64,000 bases of DNA, taken from the UHGV virus genome UHGV-0038492; one strand, given 5' to 3'. The notes below the pieces were generated by a model, which worked only from the letters and a program-made list of their open reading frames with translations, searched no databases and had not been told where the DNA came from. Both the position numbers and the translations under genes were made by a program. This DNA comes from a virus. Below, one piece after another: positions 14,145 through 31,762 of the stretch (position 1 is its first letter; every line of letters begins with the position of its first letter).

Positions 14145-14202
14145 TTTTACAGAACGTTTTGTTAGTTTGAGCACTCCGAAAATGTAGAATAGGATAAAGT
14201 AA

Positions 14203-14844
14203 ATGGTTAACAAAAATTTCTTTAAAGAAAAATATCTTTACCCGCAAACCGAACCGGACCAGCAGGGCCGTACCCGTAAACTGGGTATTGAGCTTAACGA
14301 ATTCAACGGTGACGTTGAGCTGATGAAGTTCAGCTATTCTTTCGGTAAAGGCGAAGGTTTGTATTTTACTGCTGGCTATACCGTTTGTGTGGACATTTTC
14401 GAAACGCTCCGCACCGTGATGGTGAAACCAGAGAAAATCGTTTATAAATGGGAAGATGCTAAAGGGAAGAAATCGCCAGTTAGCCTGCACGTAGGCCGCG
14501 ATGAAAACCTGACGCCGTTCATGGCTATTAGCGGTGAGATCCCAGGGGTTGGCGCACGCCAGAAGAAATTCTACTTCACCTATCCGAAAGGTTATCGCGT
14601 ATTCCGTAATGGCCAACAGGTTTCTGATTTAGAACTGGCAGAACGTACTCTGCGTGCGTTTATTAAGAATGCTGATGTCTTCCTGGAAGATTTCCGTGAC
14701 AACTATAAACCTCGTGAGTTCAACAACACTGGTGGCGGTAGCTACGGTCGTGGTGGCTATAATAGCAACAACAACGGCGGTGGTTACAACCAGCAGGCAG
14801 CAAAAGCACCCGCACCAGACAGCAGTTTTGACGACATTATTTAA
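14203..14844 (+). CDS. hypothetical protein with Gly/Tyr/Asn-rich linker and acidic C-terminal tip; possible SSB-like protein
   Basis: strong RBS 'aggataaagtaaATG'; optimised codons; tail 'GGGSYGRGGYNSNNNGGGYNQQ...DSSFDDII' resembles SSB linker plus acidic tip. Confidence 0.55.
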   Translation: MVNKNFFKEKYLYPQTEPDQQGRTRKLGIELNEFNGDVELMKFSYSFGKGEGLYFTAGYTVCVDIFETLRTVMVKPEKIVYKWEDAKGKKSPVSLHVGRDENLTPFMAISGEIPGVGARQKKFYFTYPKGYRVFRNGQQVSDLELAERTLRAFIKNADVFLEDFRDNYKPREFNNTGGGSYGRGGYNSNNNGGGYNQQAAKAPAPDSSFDDII

Positions 14845-14863
14845 TTAACGTAAAAACAATAAT

Positions 14864-14895
14864 TCAGCCCCAGGGAATCCTGGGGCTTCTTATCG
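14864..14895 (+). terminator. hairpin terminator (weak T-tract)
   Basis: 'cagccccagggaatcctggggct'. Confidence 0.5.
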
Positions 14896-14921
14896 TGTAT
14901 GTGTGCAGAACACAGTCGAAG

Positions 14922-14958
14922 TTATCTTAGATAGATTTTATCTTTGTGGTCGACTATG
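14922..14958 (+). promoter_or_regulatory. phage promoter-like motif, copy 3
   Basis: 'ttatcttagatagattttatctttgtgg'. Confidence 0.4.
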
Positions 14959-14978
14959 TTATCCCTGGAGATTTTAAA

Positions 14979-16607
14979 ATGCGTATTGAGAAAAATCGCG
15001 ACCGTCTCATTATTAGTTACGGTGATAAGGAAGTAGGGTTTAACGGATTCCGTAATGGACGCAAAGATGCGAATGTGCCAGACGTACGCGATAGCTCCGG
15101 CAAAGTGGTTACCCATGACAAAATTATGTTCATGGAAATCGAACGTTATTGGTCAACGTTAACGTCGGAGGAAAAGGAAGAGTTATTCTCGGCGTACGAA
15201 GAGTTAGAAATGCTGGGTAATGAAGAACCCGAAACGATTCGTAAACATGCGCCAGAGATTGTTGCACAAATTGCCAAATTCCACCACGCGGACAGATTCC
15301 GCCAACTCTATCCACAAAGTTCCGTGTGGATTCCTCAAAACGTCCACGAAACTTACGAAGAAATGTCATCTAACTATCCGAAAGAGATGACGTATATCGT
15401 ACAAGACTACTACGAACTGGTCATACTGTCGCTGATGGTAAAACCGTTCATTCCGGTATTCTTGGTCATGGATGCTTTCCCGACAACACGCGCCGCTGTG
15501 GACTCTAAGCGGAAAAGCGTTTATAACTTAACCCATTGCATGGAATTGCTTTACGACACCGAGATAGCACAACTACCTGCAATCAGTAAATTGCGGGACT
15601 TCTTAGTGTCGGTGATTTCGAAAGTACAGGACGGTGGTAATAAAGGACCGAACAGTGCGAACTTAACGGTGCTGGCCTCTATCTGTGGTTACGGTACGGA
15701 TATGGTGGAAGAGTATATCATGGCATTCGCGGTGATTCGCTTAATCGCCATGAAACTCATCGGCGCAGAGTTACCTCCAGGCACGATGGTGGAGAACAAC
15801 ATCGTTGCGGGGATGTACTTTAATATCAAGCAGGAAATCGAAACAGGATTTGCAGGAAAGATTTCGTCACAGAACGTCATCTTAAAAGCGCATCCTGAAA
15901 AGATTATGTTTAACGGTGAGAAAGGGAAAACCTGTGCGATAGACTTGGTTCAGGCGCGTTCTAAAGCGCCAATGAAAGAGTTTGTTCGTACTCAAGAGTT
16001 TTTCAACGATTACCGTCGTGTGGTGCGTTCTTTAGGGATCGATATCGCCCCTGCGGATGCTAAGGTACTGATTGATTCTATTCACCTGAATCATCAATAT
16101 CCGTTCTACGAACTGTACGAGTGGCTGGTTGCAGCTGCACTGCATCGCTTTGCTGACCGCAGAACCTATAAGGACATTGACGCTGCTGCGTTTAAGAATG
16201 CAATGGGGATCGCACAAGCGATTTATATCTACTACGGAATGCATGAGATAGCACAGTTGCTAAGCTGTGAAATGGTCTTAGATCCCAATAACGGGGGCTA
16301 TCCAATCGAACCTATTGATAATGAGATCAAAATAAAATCGGATAGATTTTATCCTCAGGCATACCGTACCAATCGCAATATCTACGAACAGTCAACACTG
16401 AAGACGTCTTTGACGTTGTTGGTACGTGAACATATTGCACCGTTTAACTTCAATCTCAGGGCAACACCTGAAGCAGCAAGAATGCTTCGGAGTGGAGAAG
16501 TGATGTTAGGCTACACACCACACCCACGACTTCAGAACATGTTAGCAGAATTCCTGTTAATTCAGAACAGGAAGAAATGTGAAGAAGTGGCGTGGTTTAA
16601 TCAGTAA
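14979..16607 (+). CDS. hypothetical protein
   Basis: start moved to ATG (MRIEKN...) with GGAG 8 nt upstream; track start is 14946. Confidence 0.55.
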   Translation: MRIEKNRDRLIISYGDKEVGFNGFRNGRKDANVPDVRDSSGKVVTHDKIMFMEIERYWSTLTSEEKEELFSAYEELEMLGNEEPETIRKHAPEIVAQIAKFHHADRFRQLYPQSSVWIPQNVHETYEEMSSNYPKEMTYIVQDYYELVILSLMVKPFIPVFLVMDAFPTTRAAVDSKRKSVYNLTHCMELLYDTEIAQLPAISKLRDFLVSVISKVQDGGNKGPNSANLTVLASICGYGTDMVEEYIMAFAVIRLIAMKLIGAELPPGTMVENNIVAGMYFNIKQEIETGFAGKISSQNVILKAHPEKIMFNGEKGKTCAIDLVQARSKAPMKEFVRTQEFFNDYRRVVRSLGIDIAPADAKVLIDSIHLNHQYPFYELYEWLVAAALHRFADRRTYKDIDAAAFKNAMGIAQAIYIYYGMHEIAQLLSCEMVLDPNNGGYPIEPIDNEIKIKSDRFYPQAYRTNRNIYEQSTLKTSLTLLVREHIAPFNFNLRATPEAARMLRSGEVMLGYTPHPRLQNMLAEFLLIQNRKKCEEVAWFNQ

Positions 16608-16640
16608 TTTATCGGCATAACCTAAAGGAGTATTTACAAA

Positions 16641-18344
16641 ATGGCAATGAAACTTCTAAAGCTTCAAATCAACCCAGTGTACGAAATCCCTAAACAGATT
16701 CGTCGTCGTATTGGGTTCTTTGAATCTAAGTACGCTTTAGATGAACTCGTAAACGTTGTGGCGCAACATGGCGAGAATGCGACCAAGACTCGAGATTATC
16801 AAGAAGCGTTAGGGCAGATTGTAGGGTTTGATAATACTCCGACCGGTGTTGAATCTCCGCTGATTAACGTAAGCGATGATGAATCCCGTCCGGTACAATT
16901 CCAGTATAATTCCCGTGACACTGGCGTGTATAACTTCGTTGCGATTATCGTAGGTAACGTGATTAACGAATGTCGTACGCAAGAAACCCGTTATGTTGTC
17001 TCGGGTTATACCTCCCAGGCAGAGCGCTCCGTATTTAACCACCTGCCAGATGACATGGTGTTATACATCAATGAAATCTACGGCTTGCAGTGTACGTACA
17101 TTACCGATGCGTTCGGGGGACGTCGTATCAACCCAGATTCATTCCGTCTGGTTGATAACTACGTGCTGTCTAAAACATTGACAGCGGATAGCTACAGTGA
17201 GCACACTATCGATGCGATCTCTACTGCAAAAGCAGCATCCACGATTCGTAATCTGATTAACGCAGGTGAGAAGTTCACTTACGATGACCAAACGGTTATC
17301 TCTGCGAACTGTCAATCCGCACCGCAGCTGATGTCTGGTCAACTGACTCGTCCTGAGTCTTTCGTCACAGCGATTGCTAACTCTTTCATCAACACGATGG
17401 GGATTGAAACAGAACTGAGCACGGTAGACAGCTTCTTTGCAGGTGACCATTCTCTCGGTGTAGAATCCGAGCTGAACCAAATCGGGGTAATGCGCAATTT
17501 CAATAACTACGAACTGATCCGTGCTTTCCGTGCCGCGTTAACGAACGCGACGTCGGATGTGACTGGTGGTTGGAACGCAGTCAACCGCGCAGCGTTTAAG
17601 TTAGCTGATTTGCGTAACGCAATCATGAACCCGCAAGATTTGGATATTGCGATTTCGCAATCTCTAGCGGTAGCTGACCGCCGTGGTTTCGGTGAGATTG
17701 AACGTACCGATGATTGGGTAGGACGTAATAACTATTCTACCCAAGGTTCTCTGGTTGCGTTTGATTTGGCGATGGTACTCGGTCCAATCGTGTCCCGTAA
17801 CTTGATTGGTGAGATTACTTTCTTCTACGATAACCGCATGGCGGATATTTCCACGCAACCGATGCTGCAAGTTGCTCACCACACAGTCGGCGCGTTAACT
17901 GATGAAGGTTTGCCAGATGTATTAGCACGTCGTTTCATGAGCGATCTCCAGGGTTTGATGCTACAAGTGACCAAACACAACCGTATTCGTTGCTGCATGA
18001 CAGTAACTTGTATCGTTGGTGTGGTAACGCGCATTGAGATTGAACTCGATGGTGAGATGCCTGAGTATTACACCTTTGCATCGTTCATGAAAGCGCGTAT
18101 CCATAGTGGGGTGACAACTGATCTTAACTACACCAATCAGTTGGCTGTCGAAACGGCACAGCTGATGAATAAAGTAGAAGAAGGTTATCAGGAATTCAAC
18201 CGTGGACAAAACCGGACTAATATCCTGTCCAACATTCCTACGGCAGCGGCTGCGCCTACCAATAGCTTCGGTTCTTTCGGTAGCTTTGGTGCTCCTGACA
18301 ATACTTCCACCACAGGCGGTCTATTCGGCGCTTTCGGCGAGTAA
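16641..18344 (+). CDS. hypothetical protein with FG-rich C-terminal tail
   Basis: 567 aa; RBS 'aaaggag'; tail '...APTNSFGSFGSFGAPDNTSTTGGLFGAFGE'. Confidence 0.6.
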   Translation: MAMKLLKLQINPVYEIPKQIRRRIGFFESKYALDELVNVVAQHGENATKTRDYQEALGQIVGFDNTPTGVESPLINVSDDESRPVQFQYNSRDTGVYNFVAIIVGNVINECRTQETRYVVSGYTSQAERSVFNHLPDDMVLYINEIYGLQCTYITDAFGGRRINPDSFRLVDNYVLSKTLTADSYSEHTIDAISTAKAASTIRNLINAGEKFTYDDQTVISANCQSAPQLMSGQLTRPESFVTAIANSFINTMGIETELSTVDSFFAGDHSLGVESELNQIGVMRNFNNYELIRAFRAALTNATSDVTGGWNAVNRAAFKLADLRNAIMNPQDLDIAISQSLAVADRRGFGEIERTDDWVGRNNYSTQGSLVAFDLAMVLGPIVSRNLIGEITFFYDNRMADISTQPMLQVAHHTVGALTDEGLPDVLARRFMSDLQGLMLQVTKHNRIRCCMTVTCIVGVVTRIEIELDGEMPEYYTFASFMKARIHSGVTTDLNYTNQLAVETAQLMNKVEEGYQEFNRGQNRTNILSNIPTAAAAPTNSFGSFGSFGAPDNTSTTGGLFGAFGE

Positions 18345-18364
18345 AAAATATCAAGGATTAATAA

Positions 18365-19744
18365 ATGAAAATTATTGAATTCTATAAATCGTTTCTTAAA
18401 TCACAAGGATTCGATTTCGAGAACGATTTGCTTACCCGTGATGACGGTGAGCCAGCAGAATTTACCTACAACAAAGTGAAGCGCCGCCTGGCGCTTCCAA
18501 CGTCAGCAATGATTAAGAAAGGAATGGAAGATGACGACGGACGTGAATGTCAGGCATTCCATCCTCTCTGTGAATCTGTGCTGGCCGGTGAATCGGGCAC
18601 TATCCGTTTCTTGAAGAAATCCATCAATGCGAATTTGTTCATTCGTTCCTTTGCGTTGATTGACGCTATTCTGGAAACGGCTGCCAGTGGTAAAGCAATT
18701 CGTTCTGCGGCGTACAAGAAGTTCTTAACGGAACAGATTTGTGAAGGGATGAAAGATCCGACGTTTGACGATCGTTTGGTGAAATCCTGGGAAGCAGTTA
18801 AACAATACGTTTATGGCTTATTGGAGCGCGATAAAAAGCACAAAGTTACCCAGCTCTTTATTGCATCTGATTTAGTTATCGACGGTGTGAAGTTTAACCG
18901 TGTGGCTAATTATCGCCATATGTTCGAAGAAGAATCCTTAGATGGTACTGCAATGTACTTCTCGGTGAAGCTTCAACGTAAACAGGATAAGGTGATTATT
19001 CATCGTCTGCTGACCACTGTGTTCGGTTGGTATCCAAGTGTCACCGGTTCTAACGATTCCCGTCCGTACTTCGGGTCGTTAGCACGCGGTTGGGCACAGT
19101 ACGTGGTAAACTACAATAACGTAGTGAAAGGGTTACGTGACCACACACCACTGCGTCCGTTGGACGATGAATGGATTTCACAGCTGGACAACATGGAGAT
19201 TTACGATAATGTCATTCAGACCTTGCCGTATAACACCGGTCCACGTTCAGACAATCCTGAGCGTGATACCAGTGCCCGCGAGTTCAGAATTGACAGATCG
19301 TCGGCAACGGAACAGATCCCGACGAAGAAGGCGTCTGATGCGGATAAACCGAACCTGGACGATCCGGTAGAGTTCTTCCGTGCGCGTAAGCAACGGATGA
19401 CGCCGACAAACAGCTTCGGTAATCTTTCTCCAGCAATGCAGCGTTTTGTGGAAGAGCACAACACAACTAACCTGGCTGGTACAGGAATGGTAGGACGGAT
19501 TTCTGTAGTAGATGCTTTCGGTGGCGAGCGTAAGAGTAGTGGTTTTGGTGACGTAGGTGGATTCGGTCAACCGAACTCGTTGTCGAATACGTTTGGTGGT
19601 GGGCACTCTTTTGGCGGGGGTTCATCATTCGGAGGCAGCTCTTTCGGCAGCCAGCCTCAGTTTGGTTCGTCTAGCGGATTTGGTAGTAGTACAGGCAACC
19701 CATTTACCAGTGCTTCTACGAGTCCGTTTAAGAGCTCGTACTAA
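18365..19744 (+). CDS. hypothetical protein with long FG/GF/Ser-rich low-complexity tail
   Basis: 459 aa; tail 'SGFGDVGGFGQPNSLSNTFGGGHSFGGGSSFGGSSFGSQPQFGSSSGFGSS'; shares 'PTNSFG' with the upstream protein. Confidence 0.6.
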   Translation: MKIIEFYKSFLKSQGFDFENDLLTRDDGEPAEFTYNKVKRRLALPTSAMIKKGMEDDDGRECQAFHPLCESVLAGESGTIRFLKKSINANLFIRSFALIDAILETAASGKAIRSAAYKKFLTEQICEGMKDPTFDDRLVKSWEAVKQYVYGLLERDKKHKVTQLFIASDLVIDGVKFNRVANYRHMFEEESLDGTAMYFSVKLQRKQDKVIIHRLLTTVFGWYPSVTGSNDSRPYFGSLARGWAQYVVNYNNVVKGLRDHTPLRPLDDEWISQLDNMEIYDNVIQTLPYNTGPRSDNPERDTSAREFRIDRSSATEQIPTKKASDADKPNLDDPVEFFRARKQRMTPTNSFGNLSPAMQRFVEEHNTTNLAGTGMVGRISVVDAFGGERKSSGFGDVGGFGQPNSLSNTFGGGHSFGGGSSFGGSSFGSQPQFGSSSGFGSSTGNPFTSASTSPFKSSY

Positions 19745-19751
19745 GGTAGTA

Positions 19752-19783
19752 AAAAGAAGGGACAGTGTCCCTTCTTTTTTTAA
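19752..19783. terminator. bidirectional terminator between convergent genes
   Basis: 'agaagggacagtgtcccttct' followed by T-run. Confidence 0.65.
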
Positions 19784-20103
19784 TCGTCTACGATGGTGCT
19801 AAGAATACTGGCGACGACCCCGGCATCTGGAACTATCAGCTCTGTAATCTCAGGGGTGAAGTTCATAGGGTCTTCCAAGTTATTGAGCAGCATCATTGGG
19901 TAGATGATGTTTTCGGCATAACCTTTCAGTTTGCAGTAAGCGTAGAAATTGTGAATCTCAGGATAACTGAATCGTGGGTCTACAGTTTCTACTTTAGTTT
20001 GTGGGTGTTTACGCAGAAAATCTGTGTAATCGTGCAGCACTTTCCAGGTGCTGGTATAGGGCGCAGGTATGATTTCTTTTAGGGTAATAAAATCTTCAAG
20101 CAT
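19780..20103 (-). CDS. hypothetical protein
   Basis: 107-aa minus-strand ORF with AGGAA upstream of ATG. Confidence 0.5.
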   Translation of the reverse strand: MLEDFITLKEIIPAPYTSTWKVLHDYTDFLRKHPQTKVETVDPRFSYPEIHNFYAYCKLKGYAENIIYPMMLLNNLEDPMNFTPEITELIVPDAGVVASILSTIVDD

Positions 20104-20114
20104 AGTTGTTCCTA

Positions 20115-20145
20115 AATTAAGTGAGATAGATATTATCCTACCGAA
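20115..20145 (+). promoter_or_regulatory. phage promoter-like motif, copy 4
   Basis: 'aagtgagatagatattatcctacc' in a divergent intergenic region. Confidence 0.4.
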
Positions 20146-20166
20146 TCAACCTAAAGGAGCATTAAA

Positions 20167-22407
20167 ATGAAAACGCCGGTTGAGCTATTGAGCAGCGTCG
20201 CTGACCGTGAAGTTAATATCGCACAGGTATCAGGTGCAAGGGCATCGATGGTAGGTAACCATATGAAATCCTCGGTGCCGATTGACCATCCTGAGCCGTC
20301 GCCTCACTTTACGGGCGCAGATACCAATTACCACGATTTTCTGTTTAACGATATTGTGGAAGACAGTGGGAGCATCTGTCATTACACAACTAAGGAAGGT
20401 AGACAACGTCGCGCAACGTTTACCCGTTATGGTCGTCGTGGGGATTCCCGTGCGCTGGAACACGCGATATTCTTCCGCCGTGCAGAATGCCGTATTCCGG
20501 GCAAAACAATGATAGACGTTATCGAGATTAACTTTTATACTAATCACGATAACGTGTTCTCTTCCGAGAAATGGGAATCACCAAAGCTGCGTAGTTTGTT
20601 ACGCGGTGAAACCGACCAGTTAGAAAAGGATGAAATCCTGACGACGATGCCGTGTATGGTGGATGGTGAATTCGCAGACAGTGTGGTGCTGCCAACGGTT
20701 ACCATTTCACACCCAGACATTATCGAGGATTCCTACACGATTTCCGAAGAAGCGGCACAGAAGCTTCACGGATACGGGTTGAAGGTTATCGAGAAAACCT
20801 TACGTGAAGATGAATTCTTGCTGGATACCTACGGCTATAACGATCCCGAGGGAAATCGTGTACCGCGCTATTTTCCAGACGTGGGTGAAGCGATTCGTGA
20901 TGACGGATTAGTTATCGCTTCTCGTCGTTTCGATGACCTGTACGCAGCGATTGATGCAACCTTAGGGGAAACTCAACACGTTTCTCCGTTCTTCGATAAC
21001 TGTGATTACGTGGATGCCGATCCGATACACTATAAAGCGCGTTTGGAAAACAATCACGAACTGATGGAACGTAGCGGAACTCGCATTGTTGATATTCAGG
21101 TTTGGCGTGATGAAACGTCATGCGGTAATGGAACGAATAACATTAACTGTACTGAAGAGAACAAACGTGAGCTTGACAAATACGCATTGGCGTTAAAGGA
21201 CTACTACAATGCGATTGTTCGCTTCTATTTCTCCGTGTCGAGAGATAAAAACATTATCTGGTCTCCCAAAGCGTGTGTGTTGCTGGAGAAAGCTTTTGCA
21301 TCCGAAACGTACGAAGTCTACGCAGAGTTTCGTGAAGAAATTCGCGGAGTGATTGAAGACGCAATTCGTCGCGGCGAATACGGTAAAGAGAACGTAAGTC
21401 AACAGATTATCTCCAAATTGACTTCACCTGTTCAGCGCGGATTAAGCGATCCCATCAATACGTGCACAATTCGTATCGCGGTACGTTATCCGATCCCGGT
21501 GACGGTGTCTTCTAAGATTACCGACCGCTCGGGTACGAAAGGGATTGTGGGTCGTGTACTGCCAGTTGAACAGATGCCAATTAACGAGTTCGGCGAACGT
21601 GTCCACGTACTACGTTCAATGAACGCCGTGATTCGTCGTTCTACCTACGCCGCGCTGTTCCACATGTATTGGTCAGCAGCATCTGAACAGCTGAAGATGC
21701 GTCTTAAACCGATGCTGGATGAAGGACGTATTGGTGAGTGTTGGGAAATCCTGATGGACTACCTTTCACGCTATAATCCAGAATGGGCGAACACGTTACA
21801 GGCTACGCATCCTACGGAGGATTTGCAGCGAGAACTCTTTAAAGAGATTTACGATTTCACCATCCGCATTTACTTACCTCACGAACTTGATGACACTCCG
21901 GTGGAAATCAGTGAACGTTTAGGTGAGTTTAAACCTCGTAAGTCGAAACTGCTTATTACCAATTACGATGGTAAACAGGAATGGACAAAAGACGAGTTTT
22001 ACGTGGGTGGTGTAGAAACATTACGGCTTGATAAGACGGGACGTGAATTCTCAAGTATTTCGTCGATGTACCTGAACTACCTGGGCACGATTGATGCGTC
22101 TAACCAAGGACGTGGTTCGTATCCGGTAAACTATAAAACGTTAAAATGGGCTGGTCCTTCGGAAGAACGACTATTAGCGGGTTATGGTCCAGGTAACTAC
22201 GAAGAGGTTCACGATAGGGCAAATAACCCTGCTGTACATCGAGAGATTTTAGTAGGGCTGTACCGATCTCAAACCCCTTCCAATCCGGGCGTACTGGTAG
22301 ACCGGAATAAACTCCCATTAGGAGATTCGCAGATTGACAGAATGATGAAAAACATTCATAGCTGCGAAGGGTTTGAATTGGTGAAAATGAAAAGGGGCGA
22401 AGAATAA
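20167..22407 (+). CDS. RNA polymerase beta subunit, C-terminal fragment
   Basis: 'DRSGTKGIVGRVLPVEQMPINEFGERVHVL' aligns to beta '[31 protein letters not shown]'; 'EERLLAGYG' aligns to 'GEMEVWALEAYG'. Confidence 0.7.
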   Translation: MKTPVELLSSVADREVNIAQVSGARASMVGNHMKSSVPIDHPEPSPHFTGADTNYHDFLFNDIVEDSGSICHYTTKEGRQRRATFTRYGRRGDSRALEHAIFFRRAECRIPGKTMIDVIEINFYTNHDNVFSSEKWESPKLRSLLRGETDQLEKDEILTTMPCMVDGEFADSVVLPTVTISHPDIIEDSYTISEEAAQKLHGYGLKVIEKTLREDEFLLDTYGYNDPEGNRVPRYFPDVGEAIRDDGLVIASRRFDDLYAAIDATLGETQHVSPFFDNCDYVDADPIHYKARLENNHELMERSGTRIVDIQVWRDETSCGNGTNNINCTEENKRELDKYALALKDYYNAIVRFYFSVSRDKNIIWSPKACVLLEKAFASETYEVYAEFREEIRGVIEDAIRRGEYGKENVSQQIISKLTSPVQRGLSDPINTCTIRIAVRYPIPVTVSSKITDRSGTKGIVGRVLPVEQMPINEFGERVHVLRSMNAVIRRSTYAALFHMYWSAASEQLKMRLKPMLDEGRIGECWEILMDYLSRYNPEWANTLQATHPTEDLQRELFKEIYDFTIRIYLPHELDDTPVEISERLGEFKPRKSKLLITNYDGKQEWTKDEFYVGGVETLRLDKTGREFSSISSMYLNYLGTIDASNQGRGSYPVNYKTLKWAGPSEERLLAGYGPGNYEEVHDRANNPAVHREILVGLYRSQTPSNPGVLVDRNKLPLGDSQIDRMMKNIHSCEGFELVKMKRGEE

Positions 22408-24506
22408 TGAAGGCGACTCCGGTTCACGTAAGAGACTTGTGCAAGTTGAATTCGGATCAGGTGTGGCTACTTCGGGGCGTTTACGACGTGTCCTTCGACG
22501 ATGGGGTCACGTTGAGAATGTCTGGTCGACACATTAAGTTGAGCTGGCCGTATTGGGGATTAACCCAGTTTTATCCCCAGGTGCCAATCTCGTCGAACAT
22601 GGCGTATAAGCATGGCGACACGGCAACTGACGATGCGCATCTGCGCTTTATGTCGTTGGCGGCTGTAGCGGCACGTAAGGCCGGAGTGGATCTGGCCGAT
22701 ACCCGTTACCTGTTATCACAACACGTTTATGCAAACGCGTTTAACCTGACGGTGAAAAACTTGTTGTCGTATTGTGTTACCATTGACTACGATACGATGA
22801 TGGAGATTTATCAGCATGAAAACTTCAAGCTGATTATTGAGTGGTCTAAGCACTATCCGACGGGTTACGATGAAGAGGGTAACGATAAGGTAGAAGAAGC
22901 CTATCAGCTCATTGAGAAAATCTTTAAAGATCCGAGACTCTCAAACAACCCGGTCGTCATGTCTGTGTTAGACCGCACACTGAAAATGGATCAGATTCTC
23001 CAGGCTTACATTCGTGGTAAGACTTCAGAGATTGATTCCCGTGTGTATTCTAACCAGGTATGGGAAGGTTTCTTCACCGGCCTGCATTCTGTTATCAGTC
23101 GACTGAAAGAAGCAGGTGCGACATCGCGTTCACACCTGTATAACACCGACAAGATTGCAGACGCAGAGTACGCATCACGTAAGTTGCAGTTAGCGGCTAA
23201 CGTGCTGATGTTCTTCGATTACGAAGACTGTGGTACACATCACGTACACAGACACACCTTTACGAATTCGCCGTTGGAAGAAGCGAAATTCAAAGCGATG
23301 AAAGGAATGCGTTATCGCTTCGAAGGTACTGGTGGTCCGTGGTTACGATTCGAAGACGGTGAGTTTGAGAAAGTCTTGAACAAACCTATCGAGTTCCGTA
23401 CCGCGATGTGTTGTAAAGGGATGTCACGGCAGACTATCTGTGCAACGTGTATGGGTGACTTGATTTATAACCTGTCACCTGGTACATCACCGGGTCACCT
23501 TGCGTCAACCGCAATCTCGGAAAAGGGTACTCAGGGTATTCTGTCGACGAAACACCTTGACTTCCTGCGTTATCTGCTGAACTTGGTTTTGTCGCCAAGA
23601 ATGCGTGATTATCTCACGGAGTATAAACACAACTCCGTTAAAGGGATTAGTTTACTGGAGAAGCCGCAATACGGTACTTGGGATGAATACCAACTGGTAA
23701 TTTCGGATGAAGTCTATTCAGAGATTAGCCAGATTGCGTATCATGAAGACCTGGACGATATTGATGAAACGGCACTCCCGGAAATTAACGACCTTACGTT
23801 TGTTCGTTTAGATGCAGAAGGGAATATCCTGGCAGAAGATCCGATTGACGTTCGAATGGGCGTCTGCGGTAACTTCTCTAAGTCATTCCTTCGCTTCTTC
23901 TTGAAGAATCGTGATAAGCTCGTATTCCCCAGCAAGAAAACGGTGCGTGTTCCGCTAAAAGGGTGGAAACCGTCCTGGCCGATCCTAATTTATACGAATC
24001 GGTCTGAATCTATGGCGGAGTTTGTAGCAGGGTTGGAATTGATTTTACGTTCGGTAGCATCGGACAAGTCAGATAACTTCGAACAGTTCTCGGACGAGTC
24101 AATGCGTTTGAGCAAGAAGAGTGGTAAGGTTAAACCGATTACCCTCGTTCAGATGCGTGGTGCCACGGAGAAACAATGTACTCATGCGTTGTTCTACGTG
24201 TTCAAATATATCCAACGTAAACTCAAAGGGATTCCGATGACGCACATCGCGATTATGTTGGCAATCTCTCGTGTTGAGTCACCTACTAACCCATTCCCGG
24301 CAGTAGGGTTTGACAGTGAGGATGCTGATGCCGCAGAAGGAAAACGTTTCGAAGATCACAATACGCTGATTGCGATGCGTTCTGCGATTCCGATGTTGCT
24401 GTTTGAGGGACAACAGAAGAACTTGGACAACGTACGTTTCTATACGTCACGTAAACGTCCTGCTTCGTTGTACGACAATTCTGTCGCGGCAACGATTATT
24501 GAGTAA
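22407..24506 (+). CDS. RNA polymerase beta-prime subunit, C-terminal fragment
   Basis: bridge-helix-like 'GATSRSHLYNTDKIADAEYASRKLQ...EDCGTH' and trigger-loop region 'CCKGMSRQTICATCMGD...AISEKGTQGILSTKH' align to beta-prime '[24 protein letters not shown]...DDCGTH' and 'CAHCYGRDL...SIGEPGTQLTMRTFH'. Confidence 0.7.
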   Translation: MKATPVHVRDLCKLNSDQVWLLRGVYDVSFDDGVTLRMSGRHIKLSWPYWGLTQFYPQVPISSNMAYKHGDTATDDAHLRFMSLAAVAARKAGVDLADTRYLLSQHVYANAFNLTVKNLLSYCVTIDYDTMMEIYQHENFKLIIEWSKHYPTGYDEEGNDKVEEAYQLIEKIFKDPRLSNNPVVMSVLDRTLKMDQILQAYIRGKTSEIDSRVYSNQVWEGFFTGLHSVISRLKEAGATSRSHLYNTDKIADAEYASRKLQLAANVLMFFDYEDCGTHHVHRHTFTNSPLEEAKFKAMKGMRYRFEGTGGPWLRFEDGEFEKVLNKPIEFRTAMCCKGMSRQTICATCMGDLIYNLSPGTSPGHLASTAISEKGTQGILSTKHLDFLRYLLNLVLSPRMRDYLTEYKHNSVKGISLLEKPQYGTWDEYQLVISDEVYSEISQIAYHEDLDDIDETALPEINDLTFVRLDAEGNILAEDPIDVRMGVCGNFSKSFLRFFLKNRDKLVFPSKKTVRVPLKGWKPSWPILIYTNRSESMAEFVAGLELILRSVASDKSDNFEQFSDESMRLSKKSGKVKPITLVQMRGATEKQCTHALFYVFKYIQRKLKGIPMTHIAIMLAISRVESPTNPFPAVGFDSEDADAAEGKRFEDHNTLIAMRSAIPMLLFEGQQKNLDNVRFYTSRKRPASLYDNSVAATIIE

Positions 24507-24507
24507 A

Positions 24508-24537
24508 CGAGAGGGGCCTGCGCCCCTCTTTTTTTGT
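24508..24537 (+). terminator. rho-independent terminator
   Basis: 'gaggggcctgcgcccctc' followed by T-run. Confidence 0.7.
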
Positions 24538-24548
24538 AAGAGGGGAGC

Positions 24549-26258
24549 ATGTACGAATTCCACATGACCTTTACCAGCATGGGGGTGAGGGTTGAAGTCC
24601 CGTGCCGACAGATAGAGTCGGCGATACTTAAGTGGGCAGAAGAACATATGCACGCTCCTAAGATGGGCAAGCAATACGGTCGTATATTCACTGAACGTGG
24701 CGATCCGTATTACGCGCATATACCTTCTCTCCGCTCGTTTATCTTCCACAGGAACTTTTCTGAGCGTTTACGCATTATTATTAATCGTACGGCAACCGAA
24801 TTTGGTATTGAGTATAAGCTCTACGAGCATTACTTAACGCAGGGAACACCTTATAGGTGTAAGTTTGAAAACTACGGCTTTAAGATGGTGGAGGACGATG
24901 AGAAATCACGTTTCTTTTACCAGAACGCTGTGGTTGAAACGGCTTGCGAACCAAATCGTTTTCAAACCATCTTTGAAATTGGTACAGGGATGGGTAAGTC
25001 GAAAACGAACATGAAAGTAATGGTACGTAAGGGTGTCAGGACGCTACTGATTCACCGTCCGACGTACATCTCAAAATGGTTGTTTGATTTAACTGAAGAC
25101 CCAACGGGCTTACGTGAGTCGAAAGACGACGTTTTGGTTATCCAAGGCGTTCAGGCTATCTACGAAGCGTTAGAAATGGGGGAATCAGGCGAATTAGACA
25201 AACGTGGGATTAAGGTTATCATTATCTCAACGGTAACGTTGCAACGATTCCTTAAAGAGTACATTAACACTGCCGCAACTAACCCAGTGAACATTGATGA
25301 TTTCTACAACACCTTAGGTGTTGGGTTTTTGTCAATGGATGAAGTGCACGAGCATTTCCATCTGGTGTACATGGCAGGGATAATGCTCAACCCGCCACCG
25401 TCTGTTGAGATGTCTGCGACGTTACAGCCGGGTGAATCAAAAGCGTTTTTAGCCGAACGGTATCGAGAGCGTTTTCCACAAGAGTCACGTATATTCATTC
25501 CGATTATTCCTGCTGTGCACGTTAAAGCGTTGTACTACAGCATTGAGAATAAACGGTTTGCGTGGTGGGCGAATAAGATGACGCCGTATAATCACAAACT
25601 ATTCGAAGGTAAGTTAATAAGTGAGAACATGCACTTATCTTACGCGGATATGGTGTGGGACGTCATCGAGCGAACGTATCTGGCGAGTTACCAGCCTGGT
25701 CAGAAAGTGTTGGCGCTGTTTGCAACCGTTGCGATGTGTGAGTTCTTTACAGAGTACGTGCGAGAGAAACTGGCACAGTCTGATAAGTTCCACGCCCTGA
25801 TGGTTGCGAAATACAACGCGGGGGATTCGTATGACGACTTTATTCAAGCGGATTTCTCGATTTCAACACCAGGGAAAGCAGGCACTGCGGTCGACAAACC
25901 GGGGTTGGTTCACATGTACATTACCACCCCTGTGGAAGACCAGCAGTTAAACCGTCAGATGGCCGGTCGTCCGCGTAAGATACTTCACAACGATTGGGGT
26001 GAACTCGATCCCGTTGTGTGGTTATTCCATTCACTCTCGATAGGGAAACACTGCAATTACTTGAACGCGCGTCAGAAGTCGCTGAGTGATTCCGTGTTGT
26101 CGTTTAAGATAGCCTCTTCACCGTATGTTGTAAGGAAAACCAATGTTACTACCGCCGCAGCCGACCGAGCCAACAGCACCGTATGCCGGGCTGAACTTAG
26201 CAAGTTTTCTCGAAAAGGTTTTAAAGGCATACCCAGACGTCGAAAACGTCGTCGATAA
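24549..26258 (+). CDS. superfamily-2 DExH-box helicase/ATPase
   Basis: motif I 'GTGMGKSKT'; motif II 'SMDEVHEH'. Confidence 0.6.
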   Translation: MYEFHMTFTSMGVRVEVPCRQIESAILKWAEEHMHAPKMGKQYGRIFTERGDPYYAHIPSLRSFIFHRNFSERLRIIINRTATEFGIEYKLYEHYLTQGTPYRCKFENYGFKMVEDDEKSRFFYQNAVVETACEPNRFQTIFEIGTGMGKSKTNMKVMVRKGVRTLLIHRPTYISKWLFDLTEDPTGLRESKDDVLVIQGVQAIYEALEMGESGELDKRGIKVIIISTVTLQRFLKEYINTAATNPVNIDDFYNTLGVGFLSMDEVHEHFHLVYMAGIMLNPPPSVEMSATLQPGESKAFLAERYRERFPQESRIFIPIIPAVHVKALYYSIENKRFAWWANKMTPYNHKLFEGKLISENMHLSYADMVWDVIERTYLASYQPGQKVLALFATVAMCEFFTEYVREKLAQSDKFHALMVAKYNAGDSYDDFIQADFSISTPGKAGTAVDKPGLVHMYITTPVEDQQLNRQMAGRPRKILHNDWGELDPVVWLFHSLSIGKHCNYLNARQKSLSDSVLSFKIASSPYVVRKTNVTTAAADRANSTVCRAELSKFSRKGFKGIPRRRKRRR

Positions 26259-29622: not shown

Positions 29623-30474
29623 ATGATTGACATTTATACAGATTACGCCGCCGTTCTTACCGTCAATCGTTCGGAGGAACGTGCTGCACCGTTTCTGGAT
29701 TTAGTCACGCTTTGCATGGACTACGGATACGACGTTGCGTTAAGTGATGTGTACTGGCAACCGTCTTCTGACCCGGCAGACGAAACGGTTCGATTAGAAG
29801 GCATTATCGTTAAGTGTGCGGTAGCGTTAGGTAACCGTCTAGGGATAGCGTTAAATCCCCAGGAAGTTTACCATAAACCCAAAGAGACCGTACGTATTCT
29901 GGACGGTATTACTTCCAAGTTTGAAGAGTTTGAAGACACCGATACGCTTTACGGTATCGTGATGTCAGGCGAGACGCCGGAATACATTCTGGAAAGTATC
30001 TGTCGTTATGTTTACGGTGACGACAATATTCATTTCGAAGATTTGGTTGTTCGGGTGTCTCCTCGTGTAATGACCGTGATGAGAAACTACCTGTCTTCTG
30101 TGACCGTGGATGAACAATTAGCGGCAGGTAACGACAGACGTTTGTCTCGTATTGCTGATTACCTTCGTTTATATCCTCAAAACCCATCAGCATTTGTATT
30201 CCTTAACTTACCAGACCTGCCTGATTTGACCGTGGTTCAGCAGTCGCTGGTCTTCGATGTTGAAGACTACTCGGAAGCCGAGCTGTTGGAAATGTATGCA
30301 GTGGGCTTAACGATTATCGATAACGAGGATTACGAAGATGCGTATGGTGCGTTATCAGAGAACCTGGAGAAGCTCAACAACGAAGGGTTAAAACCTATTC
30401 CTATCTTGCAACCTGCTCTGGAAAGCTTGAAGGAGATTTATAAGGTGGCGGAGGAAGACAATGACGAGATTTGA
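29623..30474 (+). CDS. hypothetical acidic protein (start uncertain; track start 29587 lies in the terminator T-run)
   Basis: ATG at 29623; 3' end overlaps next gene. Confidence 0.45.
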   Translation: MIDIYTDYAAVLTVNRSEERAAPFLDLVTLCMDYGYDVALSDVYWQPSSDPADETVRLEGIIVKCAVALGNRLGIALNPQEVYHKPKETVRILDGITSKFEEFEDTDTLYGIVMSGETPEYILESICRYVYGDDNIHFEDLVVRVSPRVMTVMRNYLSSVTVDEQLAAGNDRRLSRIADYLRLYPQNPSAFVFLNLPDLPDLTVVQQSLVFDVEDYSEAELLEMYAVGLTIIDNEDYEDAYGALSENLEKLNNEGLKPIPILQPALESLKEIYKVAEEDNDEI

Positions 30475-31762
30475 GTTTCTGGTGGCGGCGTGTAAAGCCG
30501 AAGCCTGGCGTCGTTTAGTGTGGCGTATTGCAATATTCAACATGTCAGTGTTCCCGTCGAATCGTGAAGAACCTGAAGCGTTCGATATTACGTATATTGA
30601 CGGAATGCCGCACTACTACGCGGTAGAAGATGGGAAAGGAGATTGGCAGCCCATTACTGATGGCGTGAAAGACCAAGAACTGTTTATTCCTGAAGAACAG
30701 TTTGAGTTGAAAGTCGACGACTACCCAGGATTAGAAGGACCGATTCCTACTACCGTAGGGCGTTATATCTTTAACTGGGTTGTTATCTGGTATGCGTTTG
30801 GTACACGCTTGCCGTATATGGGTATTTCACAAAACCCGTTAGAGTATCGTAAAGAGATGCACCGTCGTTGTTTGGATCACGAAACCGATGAACCTGAGAA
30901 CGAAGGTGCTATTCGTCCGAGCATGATAGAACGCTTTGTAAGCGGTTTACACGAGCTTGCACCGTTAACCGCTGGTATTGCACCAACAGGTACACTTAGA
31001 AGCCTTACAGTGCATCCTGATGCGTATAAAATACGTGATGCGTTGCTATTAAAGCATAAGGACGAGTTAGACGACCCAGCGGTGATTGTTAAGATAGAAA
31101 AAGCACTGGACGAACTGGATAAACAGTGGTTGTCGGGTGACCAATCTATCGAGTTCTATAACTCACCGAAATCACGAATGCGTCGACGTAAGTTGATGCT
31201 GATGTACGGGATTGAATCGTCTTTCCAGGAAGGGGGTAACTATACGTTAATTCCTAACGCATTGGTGGAAGTCGATAAAGCGGGAATGGATAATCTGGTC
31301 GCGAAGTTTAACTCTATTCGTGAAGGTTCGTTCTCGCGTGGTGCGGAAACCGCGAAAGGTGGGGAACAGGTACGTATCATTCAGATGATTTTCCAGAACC
31401 ACCGAATCGTTACAGGTGACTGCGGGACGAAACTCACGCACCCTGTGGTTATCACAAAAGACAACGTAAAACGTTACGTTGGGATGAACGCGATGGTTAA
31501 TGGGAAACTAACCTCCCTGACGGAAGAGTTTTTGAATAGTCAGCTAGGGAAAGTTGTGCGCCTACGCCGACCCATCTTATGTCAATACGGCCACATCGAC
31601 TGCTGTACTGCGTGCTCCTCCGAAGCGAAAGGTGAAGAACCTCGCGCTATCGCAGCGGATATTTCGTCAGCGTTTTCTAACGTTATGTCCGTGGCAATGG
31701 CCGCAATGCACGGTAAAGAAACCGTCGTTCACGAATACGATCCGTTGATCCATATCACCTAA
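30461..31762 (+). CDS. second RNA polymerase beta-prime C-terminal-like protein
   Basis: 'RGAETAKGGEQ...TGDCGT' and 'ILCQYGHIDCCTACSSEAKGE' parallel the bridge-helix and C..YG..C..C elements seen in 22407..24506; GGAGGAAG upstream of ATG. Confidence 0.5.
   Translation: MTRFEFLVAACKAEAWRRLVWRIAIFNMSVFPSNREEPEAFDITYIDGMPHYYAVEDGKGDWQPITDGVKDQELFIPEEQFELKVDDYPGLEGPIPTTVGRYIFNWVVIWYAFGTRLPYMGISQNPLEYRKEMHRRCLDHETDEPENEGAIRPSMIERFVSGLHELAPLTAGIAPTGTLRSLTVHPDAYKIRDALLLKHKDELDDPAVIVKIEKALDELDKQWLSGDQSIEFYNSPKSRMRRRKLMLMYGIESSFQEGGNYTLIPNALVEVDKAGMDNLVAKFNSIREGSFSRGAETAKGGEQVRIIQMIFQNHRIVTGDCGTKLTHPVVITKDNVKRYVGMNAMVNGKLTSLTEEFLNSQLGKVVRLRRPILCQYGHIDCCTACSSEAKGEEPRAIAADISSAFSNVMSVAMAAMHGKETVVHEYDPLIHIT

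What the first reader, a model, noticed from the sequence alone, without database searches (positions are those of the whole stretch)
20167..24506. Split multisubunit RNA polymerase, with evidence for two beta-prime C-terminal homologs
Beta C-terminal (20167..22407) and beta-prime C-terminal (22407..24506) fragments lie side by side in rpoB-rpoC order, and the beta-prime N-terminal subunit is encoded separately at 8510..10467. A second protein at 30461..31762 repeats the bridge-helix 'GDCGT' and 'C..YG..C..C' elements. This suggests the window contains parts of two distinct phage RNA polymerases, as known for phiKZ-like phages with virion and non-virion enzymes.
Basis: partly seen in the sequence, partly recalled or inferred. 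Interest (0 to 1): 0.55.

Follow-up and report, generated by a model that had tools for sequence, protein, structure and literature searches.

The report
Two phage RNA polymerases, one intron-split
This stretch of a phiKZ-like giant phage genome encodes pieces of the two multisubunit RNA polymerases these phages are known to carry, which is ordinary for the group; one polymerase gene is also interrupted by a self-splicing intron inside the codons of its catalytic site.

Summary
The finding holds, with corrections, and describes known biology. The window comes from an undeposited ~225-kb phiKZ-like jumbo phage about 72% identical in DNA to Erwinia phage Asesino and the SPN3US group.

**Non-virion polymerase (nvRNAP).** Four of its five subunits are here:
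- beta'N at 8510..10467 (phiKZ gp55-like)
- betaC at 20167..22407 (gp71-73-like)
- beta'C at 22407..24506 (gp74-like)

**Virion polymerase (vRNAP).** ORF 30461..31762 is 72% identical to SPN3US gp42, the "beta' middle" subunit found in virions by mass spectrometry. Pfam gives no hit. A family profile hits bacterial beta' at E 1e-11, and all 50 listed top Foldseek matches of an AlphaFold model are beta' chains.

**Corrections.**
- The second protein covers only split site, bridge helix, zinc site and first trigger helix, not the whole beta' C-terminus.
- Its motif is GDCGT; the nvRNAP copy has EDCGT.
- 8510..10467 is not one ORF. A 350-nt group I intron (9878..10227) sits between the Ala and Asp codons of NADFDGD.

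Conspecific metagenome contigs carry intronless, intron-only and intron-plus-homing-endonuclease alleles. The first of these proves the splice junction.

The parts
8510..9877 (+). nvRNAP beta'N (phiKZ gp55-like), exon 1. It has 456 codons, carries the Zn ribbon C74/C78/C92/C95, and ends ...K-A-P-N-A.
   Evidence: PHROG 2987, E 5e-137, matched over aa 9-456 only. The spliced protein hits 7OGP_A at E 8e-37.
9878..10227 (+). Group I self-splicing intron, 350 nt, with no ORF of its own. It is inserted between the Ala and Asp codons of NADFDGD. The exon ends in U (9877, paired with G9885 in P1) and the intron ends in G (10227).
   Evidence: Rfam RF00028 at 9867..10179, 60.7 bits against a gathering score of 50, E 6e-13. 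Intronless conspecific alleles equal exon 1 + exon 2 exactly. Covariation: 35 of 90 pairs carry compensatory changes, and 97.6% of cells pair versus 36-44% in slid controls.
10228..10467 (+). nvRNAP beta'N exon 2, 79 codons plus stop. It starts with DFDGDQ, the catalytic Asp triad.
   Evidence: The alignment to phiKZ gp55 runs through the junction: 'KAPNADFDGDQL' is identical in both. The spliced product is 535 aa and 534-535/535 identical to intronless alleles. A Pfam Rpb1_2 hit spanning the junction appears only after splicing (E 9e-4, below cut-off).
14946..16607 (+). nvRNAP fifth, sigma-like subunit (phiKZ gp68 homolog). The true start is probably the ATG at 14979, which has a GGAG ribosome-binding site.
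   Evidence: 7OGP_B (PHIKZ068) at E 8e-10, aa 53-465 aligned to 34-434. PHROG 3209 'unknown function', E 2e-150, matched from aa 10.
20167..22407 (+). nvRNAP beta C-terminal subunit (phiKZ gp71-73 homolog), carrying the beta DPBB motif SKITDRSGTKG (aa 449-459).
   Evidence: PHROG 3295, E 2e-254. 7OGP_C at E 2e-30, plus bacterial beta residues about 860-940. Pfam Rpb2_6, 25.5 bits against a cut-off of 23.4. 77% identical to Asesino gp51.
22407..24506 (+). nvRNAP beta' C-terminal subunit (phiKZ gp74 / SPN3US gp35 homolog). It contains the bridge helix, EDCGT (273-277), Cys cluster 335-348 and a trigger-loop-like ISEKGTQGILSTKH (370-383).
   Evidence: PHROG 3015, E 1e-222. 7OGP_D at E 1e-32. Motifs. 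Its start overlaps the beta C stop (TAATG).
30461..31762 (+). vRNAP beta' 'middle' subunit (SPN3US gp42 / phiKZ gp80 family). It runs from the post-DPBB split site through the bridge helix, GDCGT (319-323) and Cys cluster 374-385, to helix 396-417 ending in invariant His417.
   Evidence: PHROG 2962, E 5e-169. 72% identical to SPN3US gp42. Family profile versus bacterial beta', E 1.3e-11. AF2 model pLDDT 83; Foldseek matches are beta' chains only. Virion location of gp42: PMC5105663.
20124..20137 (+). Candidate phage (early, vRNAP-type) promoter motif AGATAGATATTATC, 30 nt upstream of the beta C / beta'C operon. A second copy lies at 14929..14942, upstream of the gp68-like gene.
   Evidence: 7 matches in the window against 0.73 expected, with 0 of 100 shuffles reaching 7. 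The motif sits at the homologous positions in Asesino. AT-rich motifs of about 10 nt define early promoters in these phages (PMC7598289).
24509..24537 (+). Intrinsic-terminator-like hairpin and T run that close the two-gene beta C / beta'C unit.
   Evidence: 9-bp stem with 6 GC pairs, followed by TTTTT (sequence).

Best explanation
The window is part of the conserved core region of a phiKZ-like (Chimalliviridae-type, Asesino/SPN3US-related) jumbo phage that encodes two split multisubunit RNA polymerases.

**Virion enzyme (vRNAP).** ORF 30461..31762 is the beta' middle piece. By analogy with SPN3US and phiKZ, this enzyme is assembled late, packaged in the head, injected with the DNA, and transcribes early genes from short AT-rich promoters.

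**Non-virion enzyme (nvRNAP).** Among those early genes are the nvRNAP subunits. Four of its five are here:
- beta'N, 8510..10467
- sigma-like gp68 homolog, 14946..16607
- beta C, 20167..22407
- beta'C, 22407..24506

The last two form a translationally coupled pair in rpoB-rpoC order, bounded by a phage promoter-like motif and a terminator. The beta N subunit and the other four vRNAP subunits lie outside the window.

**The intron.** The beta'N pre-mRNA must first remove a 350-nt group I intron (9878..10227). This joins Ala456 to Asp457 and rebuilds NADFDGD. Unspliced message yields a 499-aa product without the Mg-binding aspartates.

**What is shown:** gene identities, motif content, the exact exon junction, intron structure conservation, and allele polymorphism.
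**What is inferred from relatives:** virion packaging, timing, promoter use, and actual self-splicing.
For: **Subunit homologies to solved phiKZ nvRNAP chains**
- gp55, E 8e-37
- gp68, E 8e-10
- gp71-73, E 2e-30
- gp74, E 1e-32

**Synteny and identity.** Synteny with Asesino and SPN3US is strict, and the five proteins are 54-77% identical to their counterparts.

**The 433-aa protein**
- PHROG 2962, E 5e-169
- 72% identical to SPN3US gp42
- Family profile versus bacterial beta', E 1.3e-11, covering the bridge helix (E. coli 734-820) and the DCGT/Cys site
- AF2 model pLDDT 83; all 50 listed Foldseek PDB matches are beta' chains
- Invariant residues C321, C374, C382, C385 and H417 across 29 homologs

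**Literature.** gp42 is a virion protein dependent on vRNAP beta gp241 (PMC5105663). The phiKZ vRNAP is GP178/149/180/80/176 and the nvRNAP is GP55/71-73/74/123 plus GP68 (PMC7618050).

**Intron**
- Rfam hit above the gathering score
- Five intronless conspecific alleles of 1608 nt equal exon 1 + exon 2, with 534-535/535 aa identity
- Covariation
- The same insertion site in EC001, SPLA3 and Proteus phage 7

**Transcription signals**
- Promoter motif enriched and positionally conserved
- Sigma-70-like sites not enriched: 20 found against 25.8 expected
Against: - No proteomic or transcript data exist for this phage, so 'virion' versus 'non-virion' rests on orthology.
- nvRNAP beta N and the other four vRNAP subunits were not found in the window (PHROG scans of most ORFs of 100 aa or more), so neither enzyme is complete here.
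- Pfam finds nothing in either beta' C-side protein.
- The two beta' fragments are not significantly similar by BLASTP.
- The beta'N gene has no copy of the promoter motif directly upstream. A terminator-like hairpin lies between it and the preceding gene.
- Self-splicing is predicted, not observed.
Confidence: 0.9

Rival explanations
1. The 433-aa protein (30461..31762) is not an RNAP subunit. It is an unrelated Cys-rich or zinc-binding protein, and its DCGT / Cys motifs resemble beta' by chance.
For: Pfam gives no hit. Single-sequence phmmer against the PDB finds nothing. BLASTP against the neighbouring beta'C gives E about 5.
Against: The family profile hits dozens of bacterial beta' chains, with E down to 1.3e-11, over more than 300 residues in the correct order. 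Foldseek matches are beta' chains only, with probability 1.00. PHROG cross-hits are reciprocal and hhalign gives E 5e-5. The orthologous SPN3US gp42 behaves as a vRNAP subunit genetically and proteomically.
Confidence: 0.02
2. There is only one phage RNAP. The 433-aa protein is an alternative beta' module that swaps into the non-virion enzyme, for example to make the proposed 'alternative form' that reads middle promoters, rather than being part of a separate packaged enzyme.
For: The window contains only one vRNAP-type gene and no partner subunits. The literature notes that the phiKZ nvRNAP does not use middle promoters in vitro and that an alternative form was suggested (PMC7598289).
Against: SPN3US gp42 is found in heads and disappears, together with gp218, gp240 and gp244, when vRNAP beta gp241 is knocked out. 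The phiKZ vRNAP composition includes the homologous GP80. The protein ends after the first trigger helix, so it needs a gp244-like partner that the nvRNAP does not have.
Confidence: 0.04
3. The break in 8510..10467 is a sequencing or assembly error, or a decaying pseudogene, not an intron.
For: There is an in-frame stop at 10007-10009 and a frame change. Databases annotate the equivalent genes of EC001 and SPLA3 as two separate 'beta subunit' CDSs.
Against: The inserted 350 nt scores 60.7 bits as a group I intron. It is precisely bounded by exon-U and intron-G, and its removal restores a 535-aa protein identical to intronless alleles. The same allele occurs in independent assemblies, with 344-348 of 350 nt identical. 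Structure is maintained by compensatory changes. The gene is an essential catalytic subunit.
Confidence: 0.02

Closest known systems
phiKZ non-virion RNA polymerase (GP55, GP68, GP71-73, GP74, GP123; PDB 7OGP, 7OGR, 8QUE, 9RJS)
   Same: The subunit split pattern, gene neighbourhood (gp68 ... gp71-73, gp74) and motifs (NADFDGD, beta DPBB lysines, bridge helix, DCGT/Cys site, trigger loop) are the same. Four of the five subunits are detected here at E 8e-10 to 8e-37.
   Different: Similarity to phiKZ is remote and scattered: the aligned stretches share few residues outside the conserved motifs. In phiKZ the intron with an endonuclease (gp72) interrupts the beta C gene (own knowledge; hence the name gp71-73). 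Here beta C is uninterrupted and the intron is in beta'N. The beta N (gp123-like) gene is outside the window.
SPN3US / Asesino RNAP gene set (SPN3US gp42 = vRNAP beta'M, gp35 = nvRNAP beta'C; Asesino gp40, gp47, gp51, gp52, gp59)
   Same: Gene order is identical and the proteins are 54-77% identical. The 433-aa protein is 72% identical to gp42, which is proven to be in virions.
   Different: DNA identity is only about 72%, so this is a distinct species or genus. SPN3US and Asesino themselves have intronless beta'N genes with NGDFDGD. This phage has NADFDGD, like phiKZ, plus the intron.
Mobile group I introns with HNH/NUMOD homing endonucleases in phage genes. Examples: the PhiPA3 gp210 intron in a vRNAP gene (Birkholz 2024; read here via the review PMC12908238); phiKZ gp72; T4 td/nrdB/sunY; SPO1 and Bastille DNA polymerase introns.
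   Same: It is inserted at the most conserved active-site codons of an essential gene. Related alleles carry an I-HmuI-like HNH/NUMOD1 endonuclease in the P1 loop. Presence is patchy among close relatives.
   Different: The copy in the window has no endonuclease ORF. The target is the nvRNAP beta'N catalytic loop. I found no description of an intron at this site in the searchable literature (weak negative).
Cyanobacterial and plastid split beta' (rpoC1/rpoC2)
   Same: Both phage beta' chains are split just after the DPBB domain, at the position of the cyanobacterial split (PMC7598289).
   Different: The phage vRNAP beta' is split a second time, apparently within the trigger loop. The phage enzymes also lack alpha and omega.

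Membership tests
phiKZ-type non-virion RNAP (nvRNAP) | A beta'N subunit with an N-terminal Zn ribbon and the NADFDGD catalytic loop, homologous to phiKZ gp55 | tested here: met
   The spliced 535-aa product hits 7OGP_A at E 8e-37. NADFDGD is at aa 455-461 and C74/C78/C92/C95 are present.
phiKZ-type non-virion RNAP (nvRNAP) | A beta C subunit with the second DPBB and its two conserved lysines, homologous to gp71-73 | tested here: met
   7OGP_C at E 2e-30; SKITDRSGTKG aligns with phiKZ FKMTDFHGGKG. Pfam Rpb2_6 is above its cut-off.
phiKZ-type non-virion RNAP (nvRNAP) | A beta'C subunit (gp74-like) with bridge helix, Zn site and trigger loop | tested here: met
   7OGP_D at E 1e-32. EDCGT, the Cys cluster and ISEKGTQGILSTKH are present.
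phiKZ-type non-virion RNAP (nvRNAP) | A fifth, sigma-like promoter-specificity subunit (gp68-like) | tested here: met
   ORF 14946..16607 hits 7OGP_B at E 8e-10 over about 410 residues.
phiKZ-type non-virion RNAP (nvRNAP) | A beta N subunit (gp123 / SPN3US gp77-like) | tested here: not met
   Not found among the window ORFs scanned with PHROGs. It is expected elsewhere in the genome, as in SPN3US where gene 77 is distant. This reflects the limit of the window, not evidence of absence from the phage.
phiKZ-type non-virion RNAP (nvRNAP) | Absent from virions, made during infection, transcribes late genes | not testable with these tools
   Needs proteomics and transcriptomics.
phiKZ-type virion RNAP (vRNAP), beta' middle subunit (SPN3US gp42 / phiKZ gp80) | Orthology to a protein shown to be in virions as part of the vRNAP | tested here: met
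   71.8% identity over 433 aa to SPN3US gp42. Genomic position is the same. gp42 mass-spectrometry data are in PMC5105663.
phiKZ-type virion RNAP (vRNAP), beta' middle subunit (SPN3US gp42 / phiKZ gp80) | A beta' fold covering the segment from the split site to the bridge helix and Zn site | tested here: met
   Profile versus bacterial beta', E 1.3e-11. Foldseek matches are beta' chains only.
phiKZ-type virion RNAP (vRNAP), beta' middle subunit (SPN3US gp42 / phiKZ gp80) | Physical presence in this phage's virion, with partner subunits (gp240, gp241, gp218, gp244-like) | not testable with these tools
   The partner genes are not in the window, and there is no proteome.
Group I self-splicing intron (Rfam RF00028) | Covariance-model score at or above the curated gathering score | tested here: met
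   60.7 bits against 50, E 6e-13, full model 1-253.
Group I self-splicing intron (Rfam RF00028) | The 5' exon ends in U paired with G in P1, the intron ends in G, and excision restores the reading frame | tested here: met
   U9877 pairs with G9885 (read from the sequence) and G10227 is the last intron base. Exon 1 + exon 2 equals the intronless allele exactly.
Group I self-splicing intron (Rfam RF00028) | Conserved secondary structure supported by covariation | tested here: met
   35 of 90 pairs carry double changes. 97.6% of cells pair, against 36-44% when slid, and 0 of 500 shuffles reach the observed value. The alignment has only 6 sequences, and the P3/P7 pseudoknot was not modelled.
Group I self-splicing intron (Rfam RF00028) | Autocatalytic splicing with guanosine cofactor | not testable with these tools
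   Needs an in vitro splicing assay or RNA-seq.
Mobile (homing) intron | An intron-encoded homing endonuclease | tested here: not met
   The window copy has no ORF apart from read-through of exon 1. A conspecific allele (L014) has a 1064-nt insert in the P1 loop with a 330-aa NUMOD1 / I-HmuI-like ORF. Proteus phage 7 and phiKp_32 copies carry HNH/NUMOD1 ORFs. The window copy is therefore an endonuclease-less derivative or precursor, and is not itself autonomous.

The most novel reading that the evidence does not exclude
The beta'N intron may be an actively cycling homing element aimed at the catalytic-site codons of the non-virion RNAP. Within one phage species, natural populations hold intronless, intron-only and intron-plus-HNH-endonuclease alleles. 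The intronless alleles differ from the window's intron-only allele at every wobble position for five codons upstream and three downstream of the insertion site, and the single endonuclease-carrying allele has a mixed upstream flank. This could reflect an arms race in which the endonuclease cuts the RNAP gene of co-infecting intronless relatives (interference competition, as shown for PhiPA3 gp210), with synonymous recoding giving immunity.
Probability: 0.3. Interest if true: 0.5.

Novelty: new member of a known kind. Interest (0 to 1): 0.3.

Why it matters
The two-polymerase strategy lets phiKZ-like nucleus-forming phages transcribe independently of the host. Finding it here simply classifies this abundant, uncultured ~225-kb phage, whose exact 433-aa protein occurs in 419 blocks of the assembly collection.

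The practical value is a corrected gene model. The catalytic beta' subunit is encoded in two exons, which public annotations of relatives list as two separate 'beta subunit' genes.

The three coexisting intron alleles also offer a natural system for studying intron homing, endonuclease loss and target-site immunity in an essential polymerase gene of a nucleus-forming phage.

Tried and rejected
- **Pfam on the beta'C and 433-aa proteins:** no hits. I used profile and structure searches instead.
- **Single-sequence PDB search with the 433-aa protein:** nothing found.
- **BLASTP between the two beta' fragments:** not significant.
- **PDB searches with ORFs 16641..18344 and 18365..19744,** as candidate RNAP subunits: no hits.
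- **PHROG scans for further RNAP subunits:** none found beyond the five.
- **Rfam boundaries (9867..10179) as the intron limits:** rejected. They break the frame and would insert 14 residues before DFDGD. The true limits, 9878..10227, include two extra 3' hairpins that the model does not cover.
- **Look-up of the 499-aa read-through product in the assembly collection:** not on record. I reached the alleles through the neighbouring gene instead.
- **Rfam on the second insertion of Raoultella phage VB_ZK_P1:** no hit at E up to 1.
- **Sigma-70-type promoters:** not enriched.
- **Literature search for an intron at this site in Seoulvirus / SPN3US-like phages:** nothing specific found.

Full report
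**1. What the window is**

The 64-kb window is almost entirely coding on the + strand. Its closest deposited relatives are Erwinia phages Asesino, Stratton and phiEaH2 and the Salmonella SPN3US group, at only about 72% nucleotide identity over the region of the finding.

Gene order is collinear with Asesino gp28-gp72 and SPN3US. The exact 433-aa protein of ORF 30461..31762 occurs in 419 blocks of the public assembly collection. It lies on contigs of about 224-225 kb from ENA metagenomes and one NCBI assembly. The window therefore comes from a common but undeposited phiKZ-like jumbo phage.

**2. Checking the observation**

ORFs 20167..22407 (746 aa) and 22407..24506 (699 aa) exist as stated. 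They share one base (TAATG), which suggests translational coupling.

| ORF | PHROG | PDB match | Other |
|---|---|---|---|
| 20167..22407 | 3295, E 2e-254 | phiKZ gp71-73, 7OGP_C, E 2e-30 | bacterial beta at about 860-940 of about 1170 residues; Pfam Rpb2_6 above cut-off |
| 22407..24506 | 3015, E 1e-222 | phiKZ gp74, 7OGP_D, E 1e-32 | |

In phiKZ the two DPBB domains are contributed by GP55 and GP71-73, and GP123 is the beta lobe (PMC7618050). 'Beta C-terminal' and 'beta-prime C-terminal' are therefore correct. The conserved beta lysine motif (SKITDRSGTKG, aa 449-459) is present.

The motif claim is roughly right:
- The 433-aa protein has GDCGT at 319-323 and CQYGHIDCCTAC at 374-385.
- The nvRNAP beta'C has EDCGT at 273-277 and CCKGMSRQTICATC at 335-348.
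- The literal regex C..YG..C..C matches neither.

In the profile alignment to Clostridium thermocellum beta' (8I23_D), these elements align with 'DCGT' directly after the bridge helix and with 'C..(Y)G.C..C'. From my own knowledge, this is the second zinc site of bacterial beta' (E. coli C814/C888/C895/C898).

**3. Is the second protein an RpoC homolog?**

Three tests were negative:
- Pfam gives no hit.
- A single-sequence PDB search finds nothing.
- BLASTP against the neighbouring beta'C gives E about 5.

More sensitive tests are clear:
- PHROG cross-hits are reciprocal: 6e-5 and 1.5e-7 over the same ~80 residues.
- hhalign of a 29-member family alignment against the 699-aa protein gives E 5e-5.
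- The family profile hits bacterial beta' chains down to E 1.3e-11. The matches cover E. coli beta' 734-820 (bridge helix) and extend through the Cys site.
- An AlphaFold2 model (mean pLDDT 83) matches only beta' chains among the 50 listed Foldseek PDB hits. These are led by AR9 nvRNAP beta'C (7S01_D, 3.7e-8) and phiKZ gp74 (9RJS_D, 9.8e-8).

The protein stops about 16 residues after an invariant Met-His (M416, H417), at the end of a long helix (396-417). I read this as the first trigger helix, by comparison with ISEKGTQGILSTKH in the nvRNAP copy and AAQSIGEPGTQLTMRTFH in E. coli. This is an inference from my own knowledge. The protein is thus a 'middle' fragment.

This agrees with Thomas et al. 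2016 (PMC5105663):
- SPN3US gp42 (431 aa) is listed as vRNAP beta'M.
- It was detected in virions.
- It was lost together with gp218, gp240 and gp244 in a gp241 amber mutant.
- gp244 supplies the extreme C-terminus.

The window protein is 71.8% identical to gp42 and 76.8% identical to Asesino gp59.

**4. The rest of the non-virion enzyme**

ORF 14946..16607 is labelled 'unknown function' in PHROGs. It is nevertheless the homolog of phiKZ GP68 (7OGP_B, E 8e-10). GP68 is the sigma-like promoter-specificity subunit. Its real start is probably the ATG at 14979, behind a GGAG.

Neighbouring ORFs 16641..18344 and 18365..19744 have no PDB relatives. No other ORF scanned is RNAP-like. The nvRNAP beta N subunit and the other four vRNAP subunits must therefore lie outside the window, as they do in SPN3US.

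**5. The beta'N gene is interrupted**

The span 8510..10467 is not one ORF. The frame from 8510 stops at 10009. The catalytic DFDGDQ lies in another frame, in a 94-codon ORF at 10183..10467. PHROG 2987 matches only aa 9-456. Rfam finds a full-length group I intron at 9867..10179 (60.7 bits against a gathering score of 50, E 6e-13).

The Rfam limits do not restore the frame. Comparison with intronless Asesino gp40 and with phiKZ gp55 places the junction after GCT (Ala, U9877) and before GAT (Asp, 10228). This gives ...VIKAPNA|DFDGDQ.... The intron is therefore 9878..10227, 350 nt. It ends in G and has two additional 3' hairpins beyond the Rfam model.

In P1, G9875-C9887, C9876-G9886 and U9877-G9885 pair (read). 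In EC001 the exon codon is GGU and the guide sequence changes from GGC to GCC, a compensatory change.

Decisive support comes from contigs of the same phage species, retrieved through the identical neighbouring gene:
- **Five contigs** carry an uninterrupted 1608-nt gene. Its length equals exon 1 + exon 2, and its 535-aa product is 534-535/535 identical to my spliced prediction.
- **Two contigs** carry the same ORF-less intron, with 344-348 of 350 nt identical.
- **One contig (L014)** carries the same intron with a 1064-nt insertion between intron nt 5 and 6, in the P1 loop. The insertion encodes a 330-aa NUMOD1 / I-HmuI-like protein.

Homologous introns of about 70-73% identity occupy the same site in EC001, Lh1B, JN03, phage 1252, SPLA3, SPLA5c, SaP7 and Proteus phage 7. 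SaP7 carries an insertion of about 1 kb beyond the intron, and in Proteus phage 7 the insertion encodes an HNH/NUMOD1 ORF. The same introns are found in phiKp_32 and VB_ZK_P1.

On a six-sequence alignment, 35 of 90 predicted pairs show compensatory double changes. Cells are 97.6% paired, against 36-44% with slid partners, and no shuffle of 500 reaches the observed values.

Without splicing, the product would lack the Mg-binding aspartates. Splicing is therefore obligatory for nvRNAP activity (inference).

**6. A signature around the insertion site**

Four of the five intronless alleles differ from the window at every third codon position from -15 to +9 around the junction, and three of those four also differ at +18. 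Divergence elsewhere is about 1-2%.
- L012 is mosaic: its upstream flank is like the window's and its downstream flank is like the intronless type.
- The endonuclease-bearing allele again has a mixed upstream flank.

This pattern is what co-conversion tracts or selection for endonuclease-resistant synonymous variants would produce. I did not test which of these applies.

**7. Transcription signals**

A 14-nt motif, RGATAGATWTTAYC, occurs 7 times in the window against 0.73 expected. The sites include:
- 30 nt upstream of the beta C / beta'C pair (20124)
- just upstream of the gp68-like gene (14929)
- in the divergent intergenic region at about 6440

The motif sits at the homologous positions in Asesino. 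Early promoters of these phages are described as conserved AT-rich elements of about 10 nt, recognised by the vRNAP (PMC7598289). This is consistent with nvRNAP genes being early genes, but it is an inference.

Sigma-70-like sites are not enriched. A strong terminator-like hairpin follows beta'C at 24509..24537.

**8. Comparison with what is known, and verdict**

All the main elements are established features of phiKZ-like phages:
- two split multisubunit RNAPs
- the common beta' split after the DPBB
- the extra split of the vRNAP beta'
- the gp68-like factor
- group I introns with homing endonucleases in RNAP genes

These are documented.

What is new here is modest:
- a new set of family members from an undeposited phage
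- a corrected two-exon model for the catalytic beta'N gene
- a three-state intron polymorphism at the NADFDGD codons

I found no description of an intron at this particular site in the searchable literature. That is a weak negative. I rate the finding as a new member of a known kind, with low-to-moderate interest.

Noticed in passing
window 9878..10227 and flanks 9860..10250; loci L012-L019: Contigs of the same phage species show three alleles of the nvRNAP beta'N gene: intronless, intron without ORF (as in the window), and intron with a 330-aa HNH/NUMOD1 endonuclease in the P1 loop. Most intronless alleles differ from the window at every wobble position from -15 to +9 (some also +18) around the insertion site, against 1-2% divergence elsewhere. 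L012 is a mosaic.
   Followed up: partly
window 6440..6458, 14929..14942, 16340..16353, 20124..20137, 47371..47384, 61409..61422: A conserved 14-nt motif, RGATAGATWTTAYC, occurs 7 times against 0.73 expected. Most copies lie 30-150 nt upstream of + strand genes, and the motif sits at the homologous positions in Asesino. It is a candidate phage promoter, possibly of the early / vRNAP type.
   Followed up: partly
locus L005 (Raoultella phage VB_ZK_P1) 1594..2281; also L004 (Klebsiella phage phiKp_32): In these phages the homologous intron is followed by only 12 nt of exon (GATTTTGACGGT, encoding DFDG). A second insertion of about 311 nt follows before the frame resumes with GAT ACC ATG (D-T-M...). 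This looks like a 12-nt micro-exon between two introns inside the catalytic motif. Rfam does not recognise the second insertion (E > 1).
   Followed up: partly
window 14946..14981: The gp68-like ORF is listed from GTG 14946. The promoter-like motif ends only 4 nt upstream of that codon, while an ATG at 14979 has a GGAG ribosome-binding site. The real start is probably 14979, giving 542 aa.
   Followed up: partly
window 2784..5081 (+) and 32333..34249 (-): The phage DNA polymerase also appears to be encoded as two separate genes on opposite strands, about 27 kb apart (PHROG 2927 and PHROG 3011, both 'DNA polymerase'). Asesino and SPN3US have the same arrangement.
   Followed up: no
window 44673..45944 and 46027..47292: Two tandem paralogous internal head protein genes, both PHROG 2497 (E 1e-147 and 5e-117). 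A long antisense ORF (46009..47226) overlapping the second is probably spurious.
   Followed up: no
window 10053..10091 (intron nt 176..214): A segment of about 40 nt in the intron core is 95% identical to sequences in T4-like Escherichia phages (JSE, ECD7 and others) and in Acinetobacter phages. There it lies next to HNH/NUMOD3 endonuclease genes. It is presumably the conserved catalytic core of related group I introns.
   Followed up: no
whole window; loci L008-L011: The exact 433-aa vRNAP beta'M protein is on record in 419 blocks of the assembly collection, on contigs up to about 225 kb. These include ENA metagenomes and NCBI assembly GCA_037096255.1. Yet no deposited phage genome exceeds about 72% DNA identity, so this is a widespread but uncultured or undeposited jumbo phage.
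   Followed up: partly
window 8300..24700: Sigma-70-type promoter matches are no more frequent than in shuffled sequence (20 against 25.8 expected). This is consistent with transcription independent of the host RNAP.
   Followed up: no
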